From contig NZ_CP080507.1 in assembly GCF_019464535.1 (NCBI RefSeq), forward strand, positions 2,310,001-2,342,000: DNA of 32,000 nt, in the 5' to 3' direction. The position numbers and the translations under genes are program-made. How positions within the stretch are numbered: the first letter of the stretch is position 1; the number at the start of each line of letters is the position of its first letter. The stretch is from Horticoccus luteus (GTDB lineage: Bacteria; Verrucomicrobiota; Verrucomicrobiia; Opitutales; Opitutaceae). Below, piece after piece: positions 15,483 through 30,500 of this stretch. The notes beneath the pieces are model-generated. The model had not been told where the DNA came from, made no database searches, and worked only from the letters and a program-made list of their open reading frames with translations.

Positions 15483-15566
15483 ATGGTCCGTCGTGCTCGC
15501 GCGCGCCTCGCTCTCTTGGTTTTGGCCATCACTATGTCGGTGGCCATCGCTCGCGCCGCGCAGACA
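15483..15566 (+). other. Signal peptide of the giant protein
   Basis: The n-region is RRARAR, the h-region is LALLVLAITMSVAIA and an A-x-A-like site (ARA|AQT) follows. Confidence 0.7.
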
Positions 15567-18500
15567 CTCTACGTGCGCGCCGACGCCACCGCCGGGGGCA
15601 ACGGAGCCTCTTGGGCGACGGCTTACAACGATCTTCAGACTGCCATCGCCGCCGCCTCGCCTTCGAACAGCAACCCCGTCGAAATTTGGATCAAGACAGG
15701 CGTCTATAAGCCCACCACCGGCACTAACCGCGCCACCCGGTTTGAACTGAAGAGCTACCTCACGCTGCGCGGCGGTTTTGCCGGCACCGAATCTGCAGCG
15801 AGTCAGCGCACGGCTTCGGCGAGCGCCACGACCTTCACAGTCCTAAGCGGCGACATCGGCACCCCCCAGCCCGACGCCATCACCGCCACGACGAACGTGA
15901 ACGACCTCGCGGGGCGAACGTTCGATTTCTCCACCGCCGGCCTAAAGGACAACTGCTACAACGTCGTGCACGCTTACGGCGTGTCCTACGCTTTCCTCGA
16001 CCGCGTCGTCATCGCCGGCGGCTGCGCGGACTCGACCGCCGTTTCGCAGTCCCAGATCGAAACCATGCTCCAGCCGACGACGGCCGACGGCAGCGGTTTC
16101 CGCCAAGGGATTGATGACCGTGTCACCGGCGGCGGCCTGTTCATGGGCAATGCCGATGTCGTGCTCACCGATTGCTGGGTCATCGGCAACTACGCGAAGG
16201 GCATCGGCGGCGGCATCGTGGTGCGCGGTGGTTCGCTCAACCTCCAAAACAACCGCATCGCCCGCAACGTCAGCGGCTATGCCGGCGGCGGCGTCAGCGC
16301 CCAGCAGACCACCATCGCCGCCCTCAACGGTAATTATTTCTACGGCAACTCCACTCCCTTCCTCGGCGGCGGACTCTTTCTGCAGGCGGATACCGGCAAC
16401 AAATACGTCAAAGCCTACGAAGCCACCCTCCTCGCCACCCTCGCCGGCGTCACCGTCGACGATTCCATCACGCTGCCCGCGCTCGTCTCCCAGCCTCTGC
16501 ACTTCGATCCGAGCATCCTCTACGACAAGCTCTCGGAACAGAAAACGCAGTTCAAGATCGCGAAGACCATTGCCAAAAAAGCGGCGGAGAAAGCCGGCCT
16601 GATTGCCCCGCAGAAACTGCTGACCAACCCGCTCACGGCCTATGCCACCAAGGGTTTTGGCGCCGCCCTCGGCTCCTCGTATAATTGGGTCAGCACCGCC
16701 GTCACCGCCGTGGATATCGGCGTGCAACTCGCGGTCCTGCTCGGCGCCGATCCGAATGATCCCTTCATCCGCGGCTGGTCGACCTTCAGCGCCGGCTTCG
16801 CGGCCTACGCCACGCCCTCCGGGCTCGCGTTTACAATCCGGGATTTCTTCGTCGATCTCTTCGCCTACCACCCGAGCTTCGAAGAACGCGCCACCAAGCT
16901 CCGCAACCAGGATTACACCGACCACCAAAACACCGCGACCCGCACCGAGATGCTCGACAACCACTTCGAGCATAATTTCTCCGGCGGCTACGGTGGCGGC
17001 GCAGTCTTCCTGCGCGCCAATGTCCTCTTGCACCGCTGCTGGTTCGTCGAAAACGAGGCCACCTACGGGGGCGGCGGCGCCGCGGCGTTCGCCTACAATA
17101 ACGTCGATTTTGAAAACAGCGCCGTGCTGCGCAACCGCTCCGCGTTCGGTCATCCCGGTTTCACCTTCGCGTTCCGTTCCGTCGCCCGCCTCGTCAATCT
17201 CACCATCACCGGCAACTACGGCGCCACCGCCAGCGGGTTCGCCGTCGGCGTCGATGCCGGCGCCGACGCCAGCCTGATCAATTGCGTGTTGTGGGACAAC
17301 ACCAACGCCCAGCTCACCAAGGGCGGCGCCGACCTTTTCGCGACCCGCCTGGCCGATCTGGATGACGCCGGCGTGAAAGCCTACAACGACGCCGGCGATT
17401 CTCACGGCCTCTTCACCGGCACGCTCGATTTCCAATACTGTGATGTGCAGGGCCTCAGCACGCTCACGTATGGCACCGCGCTTTTCTGGCCCACGGTCGC
17501 TTACTGGGAGACCAACGTCGACCCCTACGGCATGAACGTCGCGTCCGCCTGCCCCGACGTGGGCGAAGGCATTCGCCCCGGAGCCGTGGTTTTGTTCGGT
17601 GCCGGCGTCGGCACCCGCGGGAACTTCTCCCGCGCCCCCTACCTTTTGCAGGACGTTTATCCCCATCCCTCCTCGCCGCTCATTAACGCCGGCAGCCCCG
17701 GCACGTATTTTCACAACGGCACCGAGGACGACCTCGTGCGCCACTATCGAGGCACGCAGAACGGTCGGATCGACGTCGGCGCGGTCGAAGGCAACGGCCT
17801 GCTCCCCCCCGGCACCATCGTTTACGTCAACTCCGCCGCCTCAACGTCCGGCGATGGATTGTCCTGGGCCGGAGCGAAGAAGACCCTCGCTGAAGCGCTC
17901 GCCCTCCCGCTCGCCACGGGCAACCAGGTCTGGGTCACGGCCGGCACCTACTACGCCACCCCCGGCGTCGACCGCAGTGTCTCCATGCATCTCCCGCCCG
18001 GCTGCATTCTCGTCGGCGGCATGCCGTTCGGCGCAGCGTCGATCGACGCCAGTGATCCGGTCGCCAATCCGACGATCGTCAGCGGCAATATCGGCAATCC
18101 CGCCTCCGCCGCCGACAACACCTCCTGCCTCCTTTCCGCCCACGACCTCGCCGACGGCCAGGAAACCCTCCCTCGCATCATCCGCGGCATCCGTTTCACC
18201 GCCGCCAATTCCACCTCCGCCGCCGTCTGGGTTTGCACCCCCGTCGTCATCCAGTCGTGCCGCTTCGATAACAACGCCGGCGGCCGCGCCCTGCAGATCT
18301 CCGGCACCAGCGTCAACAACGTCGCGGCCGTCGGTCAGGTCTTCGACTGCGTTTTCGAGAGCAACGCCGCCGGCGGCCTCGCCTGCTCCGCGCCCCGCCT
18401 GGACGTGATTCGCACGAATTTCTTCGATAACACCGCCCCCGCCAGCGCCGGCCTCCTCCACACCTCCAGCTACTACGAATCGGAGCTCAAACTGGAACGC

Positions 18501-21500
18501 TGCCTCTTCTACCACAACACCGCCACCGCCGGTCGCGGCGGCGGCGCCGGCTTCAACGGCCGCTCACTGATCATCGCCCACACCGTCTTCGCCGACAACA
18601 CCGCCACGCCGGCCACCGACGACAATTCCGTCCGCGGCGGCGCGGGCTTCTATTGGACTTTCATCGATTCCAACGCCGCCTACTCCGCGCCGTGGATCAC
18701 CGTTAACTCGATCTTTTACGGCAATCGGCTCACCGGCACCTTCGCCCCCACCACGCTCGAAAACCAGCAGTTCGGCCTCTCCCTTGATCTGCCGGCTTAT
18801 TACCCGATCTGGAGCCTGCGCAAATTCGCCGGCAACGACATTGAAGGCCTCACTCGCCTCGCCACCCGCAACGGTGCCGAGGGCAACGTCGACTACGATC
18901 CATTCTTCGTTTCGCCGACGTCCCATAATTTCTCGCTCAGCGTTGACTCCCTGCTCCTGAACGCCGGCTCCGCCTACAGCTCCGGCACCGACACGACCAC
19001 GATCGTCGGCGGCTTCGCCGACATCGGTGCCATCGAAAGCACGGCCACTTCCTCCTTCGTCCCGTTTGCCCTCACGTTCACCGCCCTGCCCGCCACCGCC
19101 AACGGTCGAAACTACACCCTCACCACGTCGGCCAATCCCACCGCCACGTCCTTCATTTGGGAGGTTCGCCGCCCCGGCGCCACCGAATGGACCACCGTCA
19201 CCAACGACGCCTACACCACCGGCGCCGGCACTCGCACGCTCACCCTCACGACGCCGCCGCACACGTGGAACGGCAGCATCTACCGGCTCCGCCTCGTCGC
19301 TTACGGCCTGCGTTATTACAGCCTCGAGCAGACGGTCGCCATTCTCCCGTCGTTCCTCTTCGTCAAGCCCACCGCCACCGGCACGGGCGACGGCACCTCG
19401 TGGACCAACGCCTGCACCCTGCCCACCGCCCTCGGGCTGGCGGTCAACTTCACCCAAATCTGGATCGCCCAAGGCACCATTCCGCTCTCGCCGAGCTACC
19501 CCAACCGCATCCGGATTCCCACCGGCGCCCGGCTCTACGGCGGCTTCGTCGGCACTGAAACCTCGCTCGCGCAGCGTCCCGGCGTCGGCTCCGCTGTCAC
19601 CCACATCAAGTCGGCCAATGGCGAACCGCTATTCCAAGTCATCGGCACGAACCCCGCGACCGACACGCCGACGCTGATTGACCGCGTCACGGTCGAAAGC
19701 AACAGCCCTTCCACCTACACCCGCGGCCCCGGTTTCCAGCTCGAAAACGCGAACTGCGCCTTCACCGACGTCACGTTTTCATACCTCTGGCAAGGCGCGC
19801 GCATTCGCAACGGCGGCCAGATTTCCTTCACCAATCTCACCGCCACCTTCTGCGGCACCGCGCTCGATATCGACAGCGCCGCTGTCCAGATCACCGGCAG
19901 CCAGTTCGAAAATTGCGGCACCACGCAGAACACCGACATCTCGGCCGGCGCGATCCAGAATTTCCGCGGCACCGTCACGATCGCCGACTCCACTTTCTCC
20001 AGTAATGGCGGTTACTATGCCGGCGCGATTTATTCTGCCGGCGGCAGCGGCTCCATCGACCTGCAGCGTTGCCGTTTCCTCGATAACCGCGGCTGGCGGT
20101 GGGCCGGCGCGATCTTCGTCAGCCATGATTCCGGCACCCGCATCGCCAATTCCCTCCTCGCCCGCAACCAGGTCGTTTCCGGCAGCGGCAACGGCGGTGC
20201 CATCCTGAACTACGGCAGCCTCTCCATCGTGCACTGCACGCTCGTGGCCAACCGCGCCGCCTACGACAGCGCCATCTCCGCCGTCGGTCCGACGTCGCTC
20301 ATCAACTCCATCGTGTGGGGCAACACATTCCCCGACATCGGCCATCCCGAACTGCAACGCGTGATCGGCAACACCTCCGCGTCCAACTCCCTTGTCCAAG
20401 GCGGCGGCGCCTACGATCCTTTCTTCGATCCCGCCAGCGCCGACTACGCCCTGACCGCTTACTCGCCCGCGCTCAATCGCGGCGGCACCGACGACGCCCT
20501 CGCCGGCACGCTCGATCTCGCGGGTCACGTCCGCCGCTATTCCGGCGGCGCCGCCGATCTGGGCGCCAGCGAGTTCGCCGGCCCACCCGGCACGCCTGTC
20601 TATCTCACTTCGCCGATCTCCGACCAGACCGTCTACGTCGAGCGCACCGCCACGTTTACGTTGACGGGCACCATCGGCTCCACCGTCAGCTCCACGGCGT
20701 TCACCTGGGAATACAAGAATGGCGCCTCCTGGGCACCGATCGCCGGTATTCCCAACGCCGTCATCACGTCCTCGACCACGGGCAGCACGCTCACGTTGAC
20801 GAACGTCACGACGTCGCAAAACGGTCTCCAATTCCGTGCCACCGCCCCCGGCGTCGGCAGCCTCGGCACCGCCACGCTCACCGTCAAAAATCGCGTCATC
20901 CTTTACGTCGACAGTCGCGTCGCCACCTCCGGCAACGGCCTCACCTGGGCCACCGCCCTCAAAACCATCACCGAAGCGATCACCCGCGCCACCGCCGACA
21001 CCGACATCTGGATCGCCACCGGCGACTACGCTGATGCCGGCATCACGCCGCCTCCCGAGGCCCGCGTTTACATCGGCTTCTCCGGCAACGAAACCTCGGT
21101 CGATCAGCGCGATCCTGCCGCCAACCCGATCCGCGTCGGCCAACCGCTCGCCGACGTCACGCTCGTCGTCGACGACGTCACCACGCTCGTCCCACCGTTG
21201 ACGCTCGCCGCCGGGCAGAGCGCGCGTTGGCAGGTCGACACCGGCGGCGGCAATTTCGTCGATCTCGTCGCCGACGCCGATCGCACCATCAGCCTCGTGA
21301 AAGGTGTTCCCGGCCTCAGCCTACACGCGAACCTCGCCCTCACCGGCTACCGTTATCGCGTCGTCGTCTCGGATAACACGGGCGACCTTTTCACCTCCGA
21401 CAGCGCCCAGATCACCGTCATCCCGCGCCCGACCGTCTACGTCGATGCCGCTGCCGCCAGCGGCGCCCACACCGGCGCTGATTGGGCCAACGCCTTCAAC

Positions 21501-24500
21501 GACCTCGCCGCCGCCCTCGCCGCCTACCCCGCTTTTGCCGATTTCAAAATCGCCGAAGGCACCTACACCGCGCCCGCCGGCACGAGCTTCCAGCTCCGCC
21601 GCAGCCTCACGCTCACCGGCGGCTACGTCGCCGGCACCGCGACCCGCGATCCCGCCGCGCATCTCACCATCCTGCAATCCGCCGACGGCACCGTTGCTTC
21701 CTCCACCGCGCTCAAGGTCAACGCCGACCGCGGCATCGTCGACGCGCTCACGGTCCTCGACGGCTTCACTTTCCGCCACGCCGGCACCGGCCTCTCCCTC
21801 CGCGACGCCTCGCCGCAGCTCCGCAATTGCCGTTTCGAAAACCTCATCACCGGTCTCTCCGCCGCCTCTTCGACATTCACGATCGAGGACAGCGCGTTCA
21901 CCGGCCAGACGCTCAGCGCCATCCGCACGAGCAACCAGTCCGCCCTCACGGTCCTGCGCTGCACGTTCACCAATAATTCCGCCGGCACCGATGTCTACGT
22001 CGGCGGCGGCGCGATCGGCCTGGGCGATGGCGGCACTCAGCCCGGTCCGCAATCGCTCGTCGTCAACGACAGCACGTTCATCGGCAACTCGGCTTACGTG
22101 GGCGGCGCGATTTCCGTCCGCAACTTCGGCAGCACGGTCACCCTCACTCGCTGCCGCTTCGACGGCAACACCGCCAGCGACACCGGCGGCGCGCTCACCT
22201 GTGTCTCCGGCGGCTCCGTCACGGTCCGCGATTCCGCCTTCGTCCGAAATCAGTCCGCCCGCTTCGGGAGCGCCATCGTGAGCGACGCCCCGCTCACCCT
22301 CGCGTTCGTCACCGTCGCTGCCAACGTCGCCGGCGCTCACCCGAGCAACGCCGCCATCTCCACCGCCGCGCCCCTCACTGTCCGCGACAGCATCATTTGG
22401 GGCAACACCAACGCTGGCGTCAGCCAGGGCGAATACGGCCAATACAGCACCAACAACGTCACTCCGACGTTCTCTGATTCGATCGTCGATGGCCTCCTCC
22501 GCACCGCCGGCGCCCGCCTCCTGCCCTTCGACCCGCGCTTCGTCGACGCCGCCCACGGCGATTTCCGCCTCGCCCCCGACTCGCCCGCACTCGGCCTCGC
22601 GCAATCCGCCGATCTTCTGGCCGACGAAACCGATCTCACCGGCGGCCCGCGTCCCGCCGGCGCCGCGCCCGACCTCGGCGCCTACGAATCCGCCGCCGCG
22701 CCCGCGCCCGTCTACACGTTCACCCATCTCCCGACCGCCCTGTCCGGTTACTCCGGCAGCGATCTGCCTGCACTCAGCCAAAGCATCCCCGTTGGCTACA
22801 GCGGCGCGTGGCAATATAATAGCGGCTCCGGTTGGGTCACGCTCCCCTCATCCTCCAGCACCGCCCTTCCCGGCGCGCGCAGCATCTTCGTCAATTCCCA
22901 ATCCAGCTCCCTCTTCACCCAGCTCTCGATTTTTGGCCTCTCCTCCGCGCTCGACGCCACGAACCTCCGCTTCGTCCTCACCGCCGGATCCAACACCTAC
23001 CCATCGCCGGCCATCCCGATCACCGTCCTGCCGTTCGCCACGCTCTACGTTGATGCGAGTCGGGGGTCTTCCGGCGATGGTGCGTCGTGGGCCACCGCGT
23101 TCAAAACCCTCGACGAAGGCCTCGCCGCCGTCGACGCCGGCCATCGCGTCCTTTACGTCGCCGAGGGCAGCTACCGCGGACCGTTTGTCCTCCCGATGCG
23201 CTTTGAGATCTACGGCGGATTTCCGACCGGCGGCAGCGACTTCCCTTCGCGCGATCCCTCCGCGCACCCGACGATTCTCACCGGCCTCGCCGCCAACGGC
23301 ACCGATCGCACCGACGTCGTCCGTCTCGCTTACAGCGGCAACAACTACAGCCAGCCGATCGTCGACGGCTTCGTCATCGAAAACGGCCACACCGGCCTCT
23401 CTGCCGATGTCGGCGTCGCGCCCACGCTCCGCCACCTCGTCGTTCGCGGCCACGATGCCACCGGCCTCGTCCTCAACCAAAGCAGCGGCGCCTCCCTCAC
23501 GGATTCGCTTTTCGAAAACAACGCCGGCACCGACGGCGGCGCGATTCGCACCATCAACTCCTCGCAGACCACGCTCGAACGCGTGATCGTCCGCGGCAAC
23601 TCCGCCACGCGCGGCGGCGGCCTCTACCTCGCCGACAGCGCCATTCTCCGCTCCGTGCTCGTGACCGGCAACGTCGCCGACACCGGCGGCGCGATCTACT
23701 TCGCCGGCTCCTCGCCGCTCCTCACGCAGGTCACCCTCGCCGGCAACCGCGCCACCACCGCCCCCGCGATCTACACGCGCTACGCCCCCGTTGCGTTGCG
23801 CAACAGCATCGTCTGGGGCAACCGCGCCACGTCCGGCGACGCCCTCGTCCAATTCGGCTCCTTCGATAGCGGCACGTATTTCATCTTTGACCACGTCACC
23901 GCCGAGCAGGCGCCCACGACCACCGGCATCCTTCGCGCCGATCCGCTCTTCATCACCGCCGTCGATCCGTCCGCCGCGCCGACCACCACCGGCGATTATC
24001 GCGTCCGCGCTGTCTCGCCCGCGATCGACGCCGGCGCCGACGCCTTCGCCACAGGCATCACCCTCGATGTCGCCGGCCAGCCGCGCGTCGTCGGCCCGGT
24101 CGACGTGGGCGCCTACGAATCCACGACGACCGGCATCACCCCGCTCGCCATTGCCGCCCCGCCCGCCGCGCTCGCGTTTCACCGCAGCGGCTCCGGCAAC
24201 ACCTTCTCCATTTCCGCCACCGGTGCCGCCTCGATCCTCTGGCAATCCGCCGCGCCCAACGGCGCCTGGACTTCCCTCGACGGCGCCCCCGGTTTCTCCG
24301 GCGCCACCACCGCCACGCTCACCGTCACCGCCGCTACGCCCGCGCTCAACGGCTATCGGTTCCGCGCGCTCGTCACCGGCACCGACGGAAGTGTCGTCAC
24401 CTCCGACGCCGCCACGCTCACCGTTTACGTTTCCCGCCTCTACGTAAACGCCGCGCGCGCCGGCTCCGAAACCGGTGACGGCCTCACCTGGGCCACCGCG

Positions 24501-27500
24501 TTCCACGCGCTCGACGACGCGCTCGCCGCCGCCCCGCTCGATCCCGAAGGCACCGAAATCTGGATTGCCGCCGGCACCTACCCGCCCGCGACGGTTTACA
24601 CGGCGCGCAGCGGCCTCGCGTTCTACGGCGGTTTCGCCGGCACCGAAACTTCGCTCGGCGAACGCGACCTCTCCGCCCACGTCACCGCCTTCACCGCCGC
24701 CGCCGGCCAGTCGTCGATCTTCACCACCGCGTCCACGCCGGCCTACGCGCTTCCAATTCGCTTCGACGGCCTCACGTTCAACAACAGCGCCTCCGCCACC
24801 GCCGTCACCAACGCCGGTCGCGCGCTCGATTTCGATCGCGTCCGCTTCACCGGAGTCGCCGCCGCCCTTTCCAGCCTCTACGCGCCCGTCACCCTCCGCC
24901 GCGTCGAGGTGCGCGGCAATGACAGTGCCTCGATCCTCGTCTACGTCCTCGGCGGCTCCGCCCTCGTCGAAAACTCTCTCTTCGCTGGCAACCGCAGCAG
25001 CGGCTCCGGCCAGCTCACATATTTCGCCGCGCCCACCATCATCCGCCACAGCACCTTCGCCAGCAACCGCGGCGACCATCCGCCGTTGTCTTTCGGCGAC
25101 GCCAACAACCAAACCTACAACTCCATTTTCTGGGGCAACCGCCAGCTCTCGTCGCCCGCCACCGCCACCAGCCTGAACGGCGCCGCCCGCCTCTACGTTG
25201 TCTGGAACAGCGTCGTCGAAAACCTCACCGACCTCACCCGCGTTGCGACTTCGCTCCAAAATAACACCGCCGCCGACCCGCGCTTCGTCGCCCCGCTCGC
25301 CGCCACCGCCACGCCGTTCACCGCCGGCGATTTCTCCCTCAGCAGCGCGTCGCCTGCGATCGACCTCGGCAAAAACGACCAGACTTCCTCCGACGCGATC
25401 GACCTCGCCGACCACGCGCGCCAGCACGGCCTCTACGTCGATCCCGGCGCCTACGAATATCAGGCTGACGACATCTACGCGCTCACCACGCAGCCCGCCT
25501 CGACCTACGCCTCCGCCGTCACTCCCGCCACGTTCACCGTCGCCGGCTCGCGCGCTGCCACCTTCGCCTGGGAGGTCAGCGCCGACGCCGGCGCCCACTA
25601 CACCGCGATCCCCGGCGCGACCACCGCCACGCTCACGGTTCCCGGCGCCGCCGAAGTCGATGGCAACCTCTACCGCGCCCGCGTCCAGTTCGTCACCGGC
25701 CCCGAACTGGTTTCGTCTGCCGTCACACTCTCCTTCCTGAACCCCGTCGTCACCGCCTCCGCACCCGCCGGGTTTGCCACGCCCGCCTCGTTCTCCGCCA
25801 CCGCCAACCAATCCGTCACCGCGTGGCAATGGCAGGTGAGCACCGGCGGCGGCGCGTTCACCGATGTCCCGGGCGCGACCTCCACCGCGCTCGACGTGTC
25901 CGGCGACGCTTCGTTCGCCAATCGCACCTACCGCGTCCAGGCGACCTTCGCCGCCGGCCCCGTCGTCACGTCCAACACCGTGGCCTTTGTTTACGCCGAC
26001 GCCGTGCCCGCCTCCACCTCGCCGGCGCAACTCGCGTTCTCAGTCGCCGGCGGTGTGCAACCCGCCTCGCTCACCGACGCGAACTTCGCCGTCCTCCCGC
26101 AGTTCTCCGGCCGTCTGTCCCTCACCGCCGGCGATCTCACGCCCACGTTCAACGGCGCCGCCGTCTCCTTCTCCTTCGCCGAACCACTTCCCGCCGGATC
26201 ACGCGTCTTCGTCACCACCACCGCCGCCCTCCGCCGTGCCGACGGCGTCGGCGCCCGTCCGCAAGTCTGGGAATACCGCGTGCCCACCATCAGCGGCGCC
26301 GGCGCCTTCGCTCTGCCCACCACCCTCTCCCTCGCCACCGCCACCACCCTCACCGCCGGCGACGTCGATGGCGACGGCACGCCCGACCTTCTCGTCGCCG
26401 ACACCGACGGTCTCCGCGTCTGGCGCAACGACGGCCTCGGCGCCTTCACCGCCGACGCCTCCGCCTTCGGCTCCGCGAATGCCAAAGCCCTCGCTCTCGG
26501 CAGCCTCTCCGCCAACGCCACCCTCGACGCCGTCGTCATCACCGCCACGGGCGATGTCGAAATCTGGACCAACGACGCCGCCGGCCACTTCACCCTCGCG
26601 CAAACCCTCCCCTCACTCTCCGCCCGCGCCATCGCCCTCGGCGATCTCGATGCGGACGGCGACCTCGATCTCGTCGTCGCCACCGCCACCGGCAATCGCG
26701 TTTACCTTAACAACGGTTCCGCCGTCTTCACCCCTGGCGCCACCTTCGGCTCCGCCGCCGCCACCTCCGTCGCCCTCGCCGACTTCGACCTCGACGGCGA
26801 TCTCGACGTGATCGTCACGAGCACAACGAACACGATCATCTACTCCAACAACGGCTCCGCTGCCTTCACCGCCGCGCTGACCAGCGCCACACCCGCCGAC
26901 CGCGTGACCACCGCCGATCTCGACGCCGACGGCCGCCTCGACGTGATCCTCACGCGCGCCGATCAGCCGGCGCGCCTGTGGCGCAACACCGGCGCATTCC
27001 AGTTCACCACGCTCGCCGCCGCGCCCGGCGGCGGCACCCTCGCGACCCTCGCCGCAGGCGATATCGACGGCGACGGCCGCGCCGACCTGATCCTCACCGA
27101 CGCCGTCGGCACCACCTCGCCGTGGCTCACCGCGCCCGATCTCGCCAGCGCGCCGCTCACCGCCCAACCGCTCCTCAATCTCGGCGCCGACGTCACGCTC
27201 GCGGACCTCGATGGCGACGCCGCTCTCGATCTCGTCGGCCTCGATGCGGCCGGCCATCCGATCGCCTCACTCTATCATCGCACCGCGACGCAACTCGACG
27301 AAGGGACCACCGCCTCGCTCGCCGCCGCCGGCTTCACGCCCGCGCCGACCACCGTTCACCTCGCGTCGCTCCCGGCCCATGGCACGCTCCTGAACGGCGT
27401 CACGCCCGTGCAAATCGGGGACACCTTCCCGCTCGCCGCCGCAGCCTCGCTCACCTATTCGCCGGCGGCCCATTTCAACGGCCTCGATTCGTTCACGTGG

Positions 27501-30500
27501 AGCGACACCGATGGTGGTGCTCCGCGCACCTACTGGCTGCTCGTCAAACCTGTCGTCGACAGCATCACCGCGACTGACGACACCCTCACCGTCGCCCAAG
27601 GCGGCACCGCCACCACGCTCGATGGCGCCATCGCCAGCGTCCTTGCCAACGACATTAACGAGGACGACGGCGCCTTCGTCGCGTTCATCGTCACCCGCCC
27701 CGCGCACGGCACACTCACGCTGAACTCGGACGGCACGTTCAGCTACGTCCACGACGACTCCGAAACACGCACCGACTCGTTCACCTACCGCGCCAAGAAC
27801 CTCGTCACCGGTGCCTATGCCGACGCCACCGTGGCGATCACGATCCAAAACGTAAACGCCGCTCCCACCGCCATCGCCCTTGCACCGGCTTCCGGCACGC
27901 ATTACACCGGCCAGCCCGCCGGCGACACGGTTGCGCTCCTCTCCGCCAGCGATCCCGACCCGGAAGATGCCGGGCTGCTCACGTTCACGCTCGTCACCGG
28001 CACCGGCGATACCGGCAATGCCGACTTCACCCTCTCGGGCACGTCGCTCGTCACCGCCGGCCCCATTGATTCTTCGCTCGGCCTGACGCGCTCCCTCCGC
28101 GTTCGCGCCACCGACCCCGCCGGGCTCTGGTTCGAGCAAACGTTCACGGTTTCATTCACCCAGGCCCCGACGCCGCTCGCCGCCAGCGCCACCCTCGACG
28201 AAGACACGCCCGCTGCGCTCACCCTCTCCGCCGCCGGCGGCGCCGCCGCGCTCACCTACGAAATCGTCTCCGCTCCCGCCCACGGCTCGCTCACCGGCAC
28301 CGCGCCCAATGTCACTTACACGCCGTCCGCCGACTACAACGGCAACGATTCCTTCACGTTCCGCGTCACCGATGGCACAGTCACGTCGGCGCCCGCGACC
28401 GTTTCGCTCACGATCAACCCCGTTAACGACGCCCCCACGCTCGCCACGCACGAAATCACGACCGACGAGGACACGCCGGTCACCTTCACCCTCGACGGCT
28501 CCGACGTGGAAAACGACCCGCTCACCTACCACATCTACACCTCTCCGCGCCTCGGCAGCCTCGTCATCAACGGCTCCTCTGCCACCTACACCCCGAGCCA
28601 CCTCGGCGGCCAGTTCGGCACCGAAGACGCGTTCCTGCTCTACGTCGACGACGGCTCGCCGCTCGGTTTCTCCTCGCCCGTCCTTTTCACCGCCCACGTC
28701 GCCGCCATTCCCCACGCGCCTGTCCTCGACGCTCTTCCCGGCGGCGGCTTTGGCGGTAACAAAAACGAGCCGATCACCTTCACCGTTCACGCGACCGATC
28801 TCGACGGCGGCTTCATTAGCTACCGCGTCGGCACCGCGCCCGCGCACGGCAGCGTTCGCTTCAGCGGCGCCGATGTCACCTACGTGCCCGCCTACAACTT
28901 CTCCGGCGCCGACTCGTTTACCATCGTCGCCACCGACGGCGCGCTCGATTCCGCGCCCCTCACCGCGATCGTCGCGGTCGCCGACCCCGTGCCGGGCGCG
29001 TTCGATCTCTCGTTCACCGGCGCCCAACACACCACGCTGCACGGCTACTTCCAAGGCAGCGATGCGCAGAACGACCCGCTCACCTACCAAGTCCTCACCG
29101 CGCCTGCCCATGGCTCGATTGCCCAACGCACCGAAGTTGTGACCGTCGATTCGATCTCCGCCCTCACCTCCTGGGTCGACTACACGCCTGACGCCGCCTT
29201 CAACGGCACCGACTCGCTCACCTACGTCGCGATCGATCCCGCCGGCCAGGTTTCTGATCCCGCCACGATCACGTTCAACGTCACCGCCAACAATCTCGCG
29301 CCCGTCGCCACCGACGTCTCCGTTTCCCAACTCGGCCTCGCGTCCACCGCCGCCGTCACGCTCGCCGCGACCGACGCCGAGGGCGATGCCCTCACCTACC
29401 GCATCGTCACGCCGCCCACGCACGGCCAGCTAACCGGCGATGGCTCCGCCGCGGTCACCTACACGCTCGCCGCCGCGCCCTTTGTCGGCACCGACACATT
29501 CACCTACGTCGCCAACGACGGCTCGCACGACTCCGCACCTGCCACGGTCACGCTCAACTTCACGAAGGACGTTCGCGCCGCCCACACCGTTGGCGACCTC
29601 GTCGACGTCTATCGCGGCCTCGGCACCGACATCGACGTCCTCGCCAACGATCACGACGACTGGGGCGATCCGATGTTTATCTTCGAGGTCACGCAGCCCG
29701 CCCACGGCACCGTCACCAAATTCAGCGACCACGTCTATTACGCCCACAACGGCGACTCCGCCACCGACGACGAGTTCACCTACACCGTCTCGAACTTCAG
29801 CGGCCTCACCGTCACCGAACACGTTTTCATCACGGTCAAAGATTACGTCATCAACGTCACCTCCAACGCCGACTCCGGCGAGGGCACCCTCCGCGCCGCC
29901 ATCGACACCGTCAACCGCTACGCTTTCACCCCGCTCACGCCCTCCGGCGACCGCGCCGAGTGGACGATCAACCTGCTCCTCGCCGCCGACAGCAGCATCA
30001 TCAACGCCCTGACCGCCGGCGCGAGCAACGACATCGCCCCCGCTGTCCCCGACCACGATACGCTCGGCGCCTCCGCCTACGAAATCCAAGGCCATGTCAC
30101 CATCCGCGGCGCGGCGCCCTCCGGCCGCGTCACGCTCAACCCCATCGCCGCCGGCGGCCGCCTCCGCGCGTTCTACATCGACCCGCGCGCCGTGGTCACG
30201 TTGCAGGACATCGACGTCACCGGCGGCACCGCGCACCTCGGCGGCGCCATTCTCAACGACGGCGCACTCACACTCGAAAACGTCACCCTCTCCGCCAACA
30301 CCGCCGACGCCGATGCCGACGCCCCGGGTCGCGGCGGCGCGCTCTACAACCGCGGCGATTTCGCGCACTTCAATACCATCGCCACCCTCTCGCTCACCAA
30401 CGTCGCCTTCACCGGCAACGTCGCCACCGAAGGTGCCGGCCTCTATCAGGCCAACGGCGAAATCACCGCGCACAGCGTCACCTTCTCCGGCCACGATGCC

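What the first reader, a model, noticed from the sequence alone, without database searches (positions are those of the whole stretch)
15567..25457. Seven tandem copies of a cap-to-'DxGAYE' beta-helix unit that I know mainly as a once-per-protein domain
- **Opening cap.** Each unit opens with the same motif: TLYVRADATAGGNGASWATAYNDLQTAI...IWIKTGVYKP, VYVNSAASTSGDGLSWAGAKKTLAEAL...VWVTAGTYY, LFVKPTATGTGDGTSWTNA...IWIAQGT, LYVDSRVATSGNGLTWATALKTITEAI...IWIATGDY, VYVDAAAASGAHTGADWANAFNDLAAAL, LYVDASRGSSGDGASWATAFKTLDEGL and LYVNAARAGSETGDGLTWATAFHALDDAL...IWIAAGTY.
- **Shared late motif.** The six complete units share N(S/C)(I/V)(I/V/L/F)(W/Y)(G/D)N: NCVLWDN, NSIFYGN, NSIVWGN, DSIIWGN, NSIVWGN and NSIFWGN.
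- **Closing motif.** They end in D.GA.E: DVGAVE, DIGAIE, DLGASE, DLGAYE, DVGAYE and DPGAYE.
- **Interpretation.** This matches the right-handed parallel beta-helix ('choice-of-anchor Q'/pectin-lyase-fold-like) surface domain. Seven concatenated, well-diverged copies in one polypeptide is unusual and suggests an extended multi-headed binding or enzymatic stalk.
Basis: partly seen in the sequence, partly recalled or inferred. Interest (0 to 1): 0.62.

Follow-up and report, generated by a model that had tools for sequence, protein, structure and literature searches.

The report
Tandem beta-helix heads in giant protein
The seven repeated units are real beta-helix modules inside a 6,421-residue secreted, adhesin-like protein of a Verrucomicrobium, but proteins with seven or more such units turn out to be common, so this is an ordinary member of a poorly studied family of giant surface proteins.

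Summary
Window 15567-25457 encodes six complete cap-to-DxGAxE units and one cap-only unit (U4). They form the N-terminal half of one gene (15483 to about 34748, 6,421 aa, Sec signal peptide).

- **Sequence relationships.** The units are 24-30% identical to each other. Pfam Beta_helix passes its cut-off for U1, U5 and U6; choice-of-anchor Q passes for U5-U7; Chlam_PMP repeats are found in U5 and U6.
- **Fold.** An AlphaFold model of U5 (pLDDT 85.8) is a right-handed beta-helix. Its best PDB match is pectate lyase Pel9A, followed by Rhombotarget A.
- **Spacers.** Ig-like modules of about 100 aa separate the units.

The "unusual" claim fails.

- **Global survey.** A profile search of 1.84 billion representatives lists 150 proteins of 1,861-7,792 aa, and 72 of them carry seven or more caps.
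- **Own family.** In 301 genomes, 71 of 101 caps lie in nine 6,400-7,160-aa frames with 7-10 caps each.
- **Orthologs.** Orthologs named "tandem-95 repeat protein" (Opitutus sp., Luteolibacter yonseiensis, MAGs) keep the same unit order. Units cluster by position in a tree.

Function is inferred only: most likely a multi-headed glycan-binding surface fibre.

Other points:
- U1 carries a conserved helical insert.
- The cap-only U4 is strongly conserved.
- A TIGR02597 gene is conserved directly downstream.

Other first-reader notes of this scan on the same window had already flagged the U1 insert, the cap-only U4 and the Ig-like spacers.

The parts
15483..32000 (+). Giant gene. Start at ATG/M68 of the open frame; continues beyond the window to genome position 2344748 (window-equivalent 34748). 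6,421 aa. N-terminal MVRRARARLALLVLAITMSVAIARA-AQ looks like a Sec signal peptide.
   Evidence: ortholog P0027 aligns end to end from residue 68; highest Kyte-Doolittle hydrophobicity in the protein is at ORF residues 76-94
15567..17789 (+). Unit 1 (741 aa): cap, beta-helix coils, a ~194-aa non-beta-helix insert, more coils, NCVLWDN, an enlarged tail, DVGAVE
   Evidence: Pfam Beta_helix 34.7 bits vs cut-off 25.9; AF2 coils pLDDT 70-88
16389..16970 (+). Insert within unit 1. Predicted all-helical at low confidence. Core motif VDIGVQ..PNDPF..GW..F..Y.TP.GL is nearly invariant in 13 homologs.
17820..19037 (+). Unit 2 (406 aa), joined to unit 1 by only 10 residues
   Evidence: Beta_helix 21.2 bits, below cut-off; full-length homolog of U5, E 3e-17
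19038..19355 (+). Ig-like spacer (106 aa)
   Evidence: spacers are homologous to each other; only weak Ig V-domain matches in PDB, E 0.006-0.1
19356..20573 (+). Unit 3 (406 aa)
   Evidence: E 2e-29 to U5; choice_anch_Q 20.4 bits, below cut-off
20574..20900 (+). Ig-like spacer (109 aa)
20901..21158 (+). Unit 4: cap only (~86 aa), with no helix body or tail. It is one of the two best-conserved segments of the protein among orthologs, the other being the Ig-like module after it.
21159..21434 (+). Ig-like spacer following the cap-only unit
21435..22688 (+). Unit 5 (418 aa), the best-characterised unit
   Evidence: Beta_helix 49.6 bits, Chlam_PMP 39.6, NosD 25.8; choice_anch_Q 28.1, POMP_repeat 29.5; AF2 pLDDT 85.8, pTM 0.90; Foldseek top match 1ru4, E 6e-5
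22689..23042 (+). Ig-like spacer (118 aa)
23043..24119 (+). Unit 6 (359 aa)
24120..24437 (+). Ig-like spacer (106 aa)
24438..25457 (+). Unit 7 (340 aa)
   Evidence: choice_anch_Q 25.7 vs cut-off 25; Beta_helix 19.6, below cut-off; E 4e-27 to U6
25458..32000 (+). Rest of the protein inside the window: 2-3 more Ig-like modules, an FG-GAP/VCBS repeat region, cadherin-like 'tandem-95' and Big_9 repeats, and PMP/RbtA-like beta-helix segments of a different type

Best explanation
The region is the N-terminal half of one giant secreted protein of a Verrucomicrobium (probably Opitutaceae). The protein is built as a fibre.

**Architecture (shown).**
- After the signal peptide come six right-handed parallel beta-helix 'heads' of the Pmp-like / choice-of-anchor-Q type, plus one cap-only module. 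Most are separated by ~100-aa Ig-like spacers.
- These are followed by an FG-GAP repeat region (probably a propeller), about a dozen cadherin-like 'tandem-95' and Big_9 repeats, and further beta-helix segments.
- The heads are old paralogs (24-30% identity). Each is kept as its own ortholog group at a fixed position in related giant proteins.

**Mechanism (inferred).** The protein most likely works as an extended, multivalent surface or extracellular adhesin. Each head offers a different ligand-binding groove, probably for glycans. The Ig-like spacers act as hinges or spacers. Whether any head is catalytic is unknown.

**Shown versus inferred.** The fold, the repeat architecture, the positional conservation and the commonness of such arrays are shown. 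Secretion, surface location and binding function are inferred from domain families and the signal peptide.
For: - **Motifs and unit homology:**
- **Family matches:** Pfam and NCBIfam hits (Beta_helix, Chlam_PMP, NosD, DUF1565, choice_anch_Q, POMP_repeat).
- **Fold:** U5 model has pLDDT 85.8 and pTM 0.90, all-beta with coil periodicity. Foldseek PDB matches are Pel9A 1ru4 (E 6e-5, TMq 0.55), Rhombotarget A 9cdu/9cdv, PL6 alginate lyases, tailspikes and AlgE4.
- **Adhesin-type context in the same polypeptide:** FG-GAP, Cadherin_4/5, Big_9, tandem-95 and BapA/LapF-like matches.
- **Orthologs:** 42-75% identical over about 6,000-6,400 aa, with identical U1(insert)-U2-U3-U4(cap)-U5-U6-U7 order.
- **Positional orthology:** the tree of 64 units groups them by position, not by protein.
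- **Selection:** every segment is conserved at a similar level, and the cap-only U4 and its Ig module most of all.
- **Background (established knowledge, not tested here):** Pmp-type GGA[ILV]/FxxN beta-helices are adhesins in Chlamydia.
Against: - No binding or localisation data exist for this protein or any ortholog; the paper searches I ran turned up no study of it, and 'choice-of-anchor Q' and 'TIGR02597' each returned zero papers.
- No recognised C-terminal anchor was found (no PEP-CTERM, T9SS, LPXTG or autotransporter barrel). How or whether the protein stays on the cell is unknown.
- The best structural neighbours include enzymes (lyases, epimerase, depolymerising tailspikes), so catalysis is not excluded.
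- Only U5 was modelled with confidence. The U1 model is poor (pLDDT 53.8).
- Pfam/NCBIfam support is sub-threshold for U2 and U3.
Confidence: 0.55

Rival explanations
1. Multi-enzyme array. Some or all heads are polysaccharide lyases, hydrolases or epimerases with different specificities, strung on one polypeptide like a single-chain cellulosome (CASH-type domains).
For: - The top Foldseek neighbours of U5 are Pel9A, PL6 alginate lyases, lacto-N-biosidase, AlgE4 and depolymerising tailspikes.
- NosD/CASH-type Pfam hits occur in U5 and U6.
- A PVC giant protein with several tandem CASH domains plus a PL6 domain was interpreted as catabolic (PMC12057145).
- A hexuronide-type MFS transporter, a LacI regulator and UxuA lie 2-6 kb downstream.
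Against: - No unit matches a Pfam model of a catalytic beta-helix family (pectate lyase or glycoside hydrolase) above its cut-off. The only hit of that kind is a weak 15.4-bit match of U3 to Pect-lyase_RHGA_epim.
- Structural similarity is at fold level only (TM 0.3-0.55, 10-15% identity).
- The repeats are of the Pmp type associated with adhesion.
- The uronate genes are on separate transcription units, and the upstream neighbourhood is not conserved with the gene. The downstream uronate genes were not checked in orthologous loci.
Confidence: 0.22
2. Mainly structural stalk. The beta-helices are rigid rods whose role is to project the distal FG-GAP and cadherin-like part away from the cell, with no ligand specificity of their own.
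For: - Beta-helices serve as rigid shafts in autotransporter passengers and in FHA (established knowledge).
- Heads alternate regularly with Ig-like spacers.
- The number of heads varies from 7 to 10 or more among homologs.
Against: - Each head is maintained as a distinct ortholog group at a fixed position over large distances, including Opitutaceae-like MAGs and Luteolibacter.
- Heads are conserved as strongly as the rest of the protein. A pure spacer would be expected to tolerate homogenisation, shuffling and faster drift.
Confidence: 0.15
3. Contact-dependent weapon or predation factor, as proposed for giant genes of Omnitrophota and other PVC lineages.
For: Giant PVC proteins have been proposed to act in cell-cell recognition and cell-wall degradation (bioRxiv 10.1101/2023.11.21.568195; PMC12057145).
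Against: No toxin, Rhs, peptidase or peptidoglycan-hydrolase domain was detected anywhere in the 6,421 aa. No immunity-like gene is evident downstream.
Confidence: 0.05
4. Artefact: a misassembled repeat, or a pseudogene whose long frame is open only because of high G+C.
For: High-GC DNA gives long spurious frames; several overlapping antisense ORFs are listed.
Against: - The genome is a single closed contig, 100% complete.
- Units are only 24-30% identical, so no repeat collapse is possible.
- GC3 is 0.86 in this frame.
- Collinear orthologs of 6,100-6,450 aa occur in at least seven other assemblies.
Confidence: 0.01

Closest known systems
'Tandem-95 repeat protein' giants of Verrucomicrobiota (PGAP name). 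Examples: Luteolibacter yonseiensis 6,105 aa (P0054); MAG Verrucomicrobia SZAS-20 6,382 aa (P0027); Opitutus sp. partial 4,083 aa (P0048).
   Same: Orthologs, 42-75% identical and collinear over the whole length. They have the same seven-unit array, including the U1 insert and the cap-only U4.
   Different: Nothing essential. Some relatives (P0042, P0050, P0175) have extra cap-only or truncated units, and others (P0044, P0066, P0177) have 8-9 units.
Choice-of-anchor Q domain proteins (NCBIfam NF041518), usually 400-700-aa surface proteins
   Same: Same C-terminal DP.F....GD..L...SPAID.G......D..G..R.....D.GA.E tail (U5-U7 at or above cut-off). Same cap plus beta-helix body. Single-unit relatives were found at 26-36% identity.
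   Different: Here there are six full units in tandem and no recognisable C-terminal sorting anchor. Multi-unit members do exist, e.g. Litoribacter WP_213946759.1, 6,886 aa with 10 units.
Chlamydial polymorphic membrane proteins (Pmp; PF02415 / TIGR01376)
   Same: GGA[ILV]/FxxN coil repeats in a right-handed beta-helix. U5 and U6 pass the Pfam and TIGRFAM cut-offs.
   Different: Pmps are type V autotransporters with one passenger helix and a C-terminal beta-barrel. No barrel is present here, and the helices are multiple and separated by Ig-like modules.
Pectate lyase Pel9A (PDB 1ru4), PL6 alginate lyases (7dmk, 7o84), Rhombotarget A (9cdu/9cdv)
   Same: Same fold. These are the best Foldseek matches of the U5 model.
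   Different: Only 10-15% identity and TM 0.3-0.55. No sequence-family membership, and catalytic residues were not assessed.
Giant PVC extracellular proteins with tandem CASH beta-helix domains (Ca. Menyafoubacter, PMC12057145); AlgE mannuronan epimerases with repeated A-modules
   Same: Several pectin-lyase-fold modules in one secreted polypeptide.
   Different: Different accompanying domains (Rhs, PL6 and disaggregase there; FG-GAP and cadherin-like here). No sequence comparison was made.

Membership tests
Right-handed parallel beta-helix / pectin-lyase fold (Pfam PF13229 Beta_helix, clan CL0268) | HMM score above the gathering cut-off (25.9 bits) | tested here: met
   U1 34.7, U5 49.6 and U6 33.1 bits are above the cut-off. 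U2 21.2 and U7 19.6 are below it, and U3 has no hit. The whole array scores 143 bits. U2, U3 and U7 are tied in by full-length BLASTP homology to U5 and U6.
Right-handed parallel beta-helix / pectin-lyase fold | Three-dimensional fold: stacked coils of three short strands, right-handed | tested here: met
   U5 AF2 model has pLDDT 85.8 and pTM 0.90. Foldseek gives probability 1.00 to Pel9A, RbtA, PL6 lyases and tailspikes. The coils of U1 are modelled at pLDDT 70-88. The other units were not modelled.
Choice-of-anchor Q domain (NCBIfam NF041518) | HMM score at or above the curated cut-off (25 bits) | tested here: met
   U5 28.1, U6 32.9 and U7 25.7 bits meet the cut-off. U3 at 20.4 is below it. 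U1 and U2 have no hit at E <= 1. The whole array scores 92.6 bits.
Choice-of-anchor Q domain (NCBIfam NF041518) | Co-occurrence with one of several alternative C-terminal sorting anchors (PEP-CTERM, T9SS, LPXTG, ...) | tested here: not met
   No anchor model hits the last 916 aa. A separate 225-aa PEP-CTERM protein is encoded two genes downstream.
Chlamydia Pmp repeat (PF02415 / TIGR01376) | Repeat HMM above cut-off | tested here: met
   U5 scores 39.6 (Pfam) and 29.5 (TIGR). U6 scores 28.7 and 24.0. The other units have no hit.
Type V autotransporter (the usual Pmp context) | C-terminal translocator beta-barrel | tested here: not met
   No autotransporter model hits anywhere in the protein.
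Tandem-95 repeat protein (NCBIfam NF012211; the PGAP product name of the orthologs) | HMM score at or above 90 bits | tested here: met
   220.5 bits for window residues after the array, and 106 bits for the C-terminal 916 aa. This model names the cadherin-like part of the protein, not the beta-helix units.
Polysaccharide lyase or glycoside hydrolase beta-helix enzymes (PL1/3/6/9, GH28) | Family HMM match and conserved catalytic or Ca2+-binding residues | tested here: inconclusive
   No Pfam enzyme-family hit above cut-off; only U3 vs Pect-lyase_RHGA_epim at 15.4 bits against a cut-off of 27. Similarity is at fold level only. Catalytic residues could not be mapped, and dbCAN models were not available.

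The most novel reading that the evidence does not exclude
The seven-position array, its conserved helical insert in head 1, the strongly conserved cap-only module and the always-adjacent TIGR02597 gene might together form a distinct two-gene cassette. Its patchy distribution (about 3% of genomes in this family, plus Luteolibacter and an Acidobacteriota MAG) would fit horizontal mobility. In this reading each head is a different polysaccharide-active or glycan-specific module: in effect a single-polypeptide, position-coded 'glycan toolkit', with the TIGR02597 protein as its anchoring or export partner.
Probability: 0.12. Interest if true: 0.55.

Novelty: new member of a known kind. Interest (0 to 1): 0.27.

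Why it matters
It matters only modestly. The work shows that the choice-of-anchor-Q / Pmp-like beta-helix is not mainly a once-per-protein domain. In this lineage most copies sit in giant proteins with 7-10 heads whose positions are individually conserved. That gives a concrete, testable picture of position-specific heads on a fibre for a widespread class of uncharacterised giant surface proteins in Verrucomicrobiota, Acidobacteriota and Bacteroidota. It also points to a culturable carrier (Luteolibacter yonseiensis) for experiments.

Tried and rejected
- **Synteny.** I looked for conserved upstream synteny (MacAB-like pump, TPR, ABC importer, methyltransferase) with orthologous loci L007 and L008. 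None was found, only generic ABC similarity. The upstream genes are therefore not part of the system.
- **Ig fold of the spacers.** A profile search of the PDB gave only weak Ig V-domain matches (E 0.006-0.1). The Ig-like label stays an inference.
- **Unit 1 structure.** The model built from a 7-sequence alignment was poor (pLDDT 53.8). The insert is predicted helical at pLDDT 26-50, which is too weak for fold search.
- **Literature.** 'Choice-of-anchor Q' and 'TIGR02597' each returned zero papers. The Rhombotarget A structure comes from a peptide-design paper and gives no functional insight.
- **Scans for U1-insert homologs.** The genome contigs and metagenome-contig scans returned only three loci each, because the back-translated patterns were narrow.
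- **Correction.** I first placed the U1 insert at ORF residues 441-640. One search corrected this to 370-563.

Full report
**1. What is in the sequence**

The window holds one very long open frame on the + strand, from 15282 to the window end. In the genome it runs for 6,488 codons and stops at window-equivalent 34748. Orthologs align from M68 onward, so the gene most likely starts at 15483 and encodes 6,421 aa. It begins MVRRARARLALLVLAITMSVAIARA-AQ. This is a typical Sec signal peptide and the most hydrophobic 19-mer in the protein.

- seven caps at ORF residues 96, 847, 1359, 1874, 2052, 2588 and 3053;
- six N(S/C)xx(W/Y)(G/D)N motifs;
- six DxGAxE ends, the last finishing at 25457.

**2. 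The units are homologous repeats, not chance**

Pairwise BLASTP between units gives E = 1e-14 to 2e-29 over their full lengths, at 24-30% identity. They align from cap to tail.

- **Unit 4** is only the cap (about 86 aa) and passes directly into an Ig-like module.
- **Unit 1** carries an insert of about 194 aa (window 16389-16970).
- **Spacing.** Between U2/U3, U3/U4, U4/U5, U5/U6 and U6/U7, and after U7, lie modules of about 100 aa. These are homologous to each other and share a W..G..W/F....TL......G..YR pattern. A PDB profile search gives only weak immunoglobulin V-domain matches, so 'Ig-like' is an inference. U1 and U2 are joined by just 10 residues.
- **Rest of the genome.** A profile of the six full units finds no other convincing copy in this 4.32-Mb genome.

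**3. Fold and family**

| Unit | Pfam Beta_helix (cut-off 25.9) | choice-of-anchor Q (cut-off 25) | Other hits |
|---|---|---|---|
| U1 | 34.7 | none | |
| U2 | 21.2 | none | |
| U3 | none | 20.4 | |
| U4 | none | none | DUF1565 15.7 (below its 20.3 cut-off) |
| U5 | 49.6 | 28.1 | Chlam_PMP / POMP repeats, NosD |
| U7 | 19.6 | 25.7 | |

Sources.

An AlphaFold2 model of U5 was built from a 23-sequence alignment of paralogs and single-unit relatives. It has mean pLDDT 85.8 and pTM 0.90, and shows the short-strand periodicity of a beta-helix. Foldseek against the PDB returns pectate lyase Pel9A (1ru4, E 6e-5, TMq 0.55), Rhombotarget A (9cdu/9cdv), PL6 alginate lyases, phage tailspikes and the AlgE4 epimerase.

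Sub-threshold units are tied in by homology to U5 and U6.

**4. The rest of the protein and its neighbours**

After U7 come:
- more Ig-like modules;
- an FG-GAP/VCBS repeat region;
- many Cadherin_4/5, Big_9 and 'tandem-95' repeats;
- further PMP/RbtA-like beta-helix segments;
- a C-terminal part with BapA/LapF-like similarity.

No C-terminal sorting signal or autotransporter barrel was detected.

Upstream genes are topA, fba, a MacAB-like pump, a TPR protein, an NMT1-type ABC importer and a methyltransferase. They are not syntenic with orthologous loci.

Ten bases after the stop lies a 357-aa secreted protein of family TIGR02597 (236.9 bits). It is found directly downstream of the giant gene in five loci of four other genomes. 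A 225-aa PEP-CTERM protein follows it. Next come a LacI regulator, a hexuronide-type MFS transporter and UxuA.

**5. Is a seven-unit array unusual? No.**

*Global survey.* The six-unit profile was run by HMMER over 1.84 billion representative proteins. It found 184,469 hits at E <= 1e-3 and 26,199 at E <= 1e-30. All of the best 150 are proteins of 1,861-7,792 aa with 6-31 matched stretches. I re-scanned those 150 with the same HMM and counted stretches that start at the cap. 72 have seven or more caps, and the maximum is 14. Each entry stands for a separate cluster at 50% identity, and only the top 150 were visible, so 72 is a lower bound. One of them is an annotated 'choice-of-anchor Q domain-containing protein' of the cultured Bacteroidota genus Litoribacter (WP_213946759.1, 6,886 aa, 10 units).

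*Survey of the window's own family.* A cap-only profile was run over 301 genomes from 63 genera.

| Caps per frame | Frames | Notes |
|---|---|---|
| 7-10 | 9 | 6,402-7,162 aa, in 8 genomes; hold 71 of the 101 caps found |
| 2 | 6 | |
| 1 | 18 | many on short contigs |

In total, 23 genomes have a cap. The U1-insert profile marks the same eight genomes.

So the gene is patchy (about 3% of the sampled genomes). Where the domain occurs in this lineage, though, the 7-10-unit giant is its main context.

The literature has also described PVC giant proteins with several tandem CASH beta-helix domains (PMC12057145) and giant genes in PVC phyla (bioRxiv 10.1101/2023.11.21.568195).

**6. Orthologs and history**

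Full-length relatives are:
- P0173: 75% identical, from a MAG labelled Verrucomicrobiota;
- P0174: 66%;
- P0027: 64-68%, 'tandem-95 repeat protein', MAG Verrucomicrobia;
- P0048: 46%, Opitutus sp.;
- P0176: 44%;
- P0054: 42%, Luteolibacter yonseiensis.

All six keep the order U1(with insert)-U2-U3-U4(cap only)-U5-U6-U7. Three relatives have extra cap-only or truncated units around position 4 (P0042, P0050, P0175). More distant ones have 8-9 units; one of these comes from a Candidatus Acidoferrum MAG of the Acidobacteriota.

In a maximum-likelihood tree of 64 full units from ten proteins, units of the eight closer proteins form six clades by position, not by protein. The array therefore predates the divergence of these lineages, and each head has been kept separately.

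Per-segment identity shows even conservation along the protein. The cap-only U4 and the Ig module after it are the best-conserved parts: 62-64% and 55-72% identity to the two most distant orthologs, against 38-50% elsewhere. The cap-only unit is therefore a selected module, not a decaying remnant.

The U1 insert is less conserved overall (33-35%). It does contain a nearly invariant core, VDIGVQ..PNDPF..GW..F..Y.TP.GL, including a borderline-hydrophobic helix. Its predicted structure is all-helical but of low confidence.

**7. How it probably works**

*Shown:*
- a secretion signal;
- a string of six beta-helix heads plus one cap module, separated by Ig-like spacers;
- adhesin-type domains downstream;
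- positional conservation of each head.

*Inferred:* a long, beaded surface or extracellular fibre that binds several different ligands, most likely glycans, through distinct heads (confidence about 0.55).

*Rivals:*
- The heads are enzymes (0.22). The structural neighbours are lyases, but similarity is only at fold level, and no catalytic family model matches.
- The heads are merely a rigid stalk (0.15). Position-specific conservation argues against this.
- A contact-dependent weapon (0.05). No toxin or lytic domain was found.
- An artefact (0.01). Excluded by the collinear orthologs and the closed genome.

**8. Verdict**

The rarity claim is refuted. This is a new, unstudied member of a known and widespread kind of giant multi-domain surface protein, already named 'tandem-95 repeat protein' in orthologs. 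Interest is low to moderate.

Four details are worth keeping:
- the position-coded heads;
- the highly conserved cap-only module;
- the conserved insert in head 1;
- the conserved TIGR02597 partner gene.

Noticed in passing
window-equivalent 34758-35831 (L013:2761-3834, genome 2344758-2345831, + strand): A 357-aa secreted TIGR02597-family protein with an internal duplication starts 10 nt after the giant gene's stop. It lies directly downstream of the orthologous giant gene in G095, G096, G106 (twice) and G162. This makes it a likely functional partner of unknown role. No paper in the library mentions TIGR02597.
   Followed up: partly
window 16389-16970: Head 1 carries an insert of about 194 aa that is present in all 13 homologs examined. 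Its core is nearly invariant (VDIGVQ..PNDPF..GW..F..Y.TP.GL) and includes a borderline transmembrane-like hydrophobic stretch (Kyte-Doolittle 1.70). It is predicted helical but at pLDDT 26-50.
   Followed up: partly
window 20901-21434: The cap-only unit 4 and the Ig-like module after it are the most conserved segments of the whole 6,421-aa protein among orthologs. Relatives P0042, P0050 and P0175 carry two to four consecutive cap-only or truncated modules, so the cap appears to function as a domain on its own.
   Followed up: partly
L013:3831-4508 (genome 2345828-2346505, + strand): A 225-aa PEP-CTERM protein overlaps the TIGR02597 gene's end by 4 nt. The giant protein itself has no recognisable anchor.
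   Followed up: no
genome 3354413-3412060 (-), 4259903-4301386 (+), 4301488-4320198 (+): The same 4.32-Mb genome has stop-free frames of 19,216, 13,828 and 6,237 aa. The last one runs to the end of the linearised contig. The gene studied here is only the third-largest frame.
   Followed up: no
genome 2837948-2838946 (+): A second TIGR02597 paralog (216.6 bits) lies about 4 kb upstream of a 2,778-aa frame (2842854-2851187).
   Followed up: no
L009 (DATMRF010000044.1, Candidatus Acidoferrum MAG) and L012 (Ga0210409_10000041): A homolog with 8-9 units and the head-1 insert occurs in an Acidobacteriota MAG. Together with the patchy distribution in the family (8 of 301 genomes) and the lack of upstream synteny, this suggests horizontal transfer of the giant gene.
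   Followed up: partly
L013:4574-9298 (downstream of the giant gene): A LacI-family regulator, a GPH/MFS_2 sugar (hexuronide-type) transporter and a UxuA mannonate dehydratase lie 2-6 kb downstream. This may be a coincidental link to uronate-polysaccharide use.
   Followed up: no
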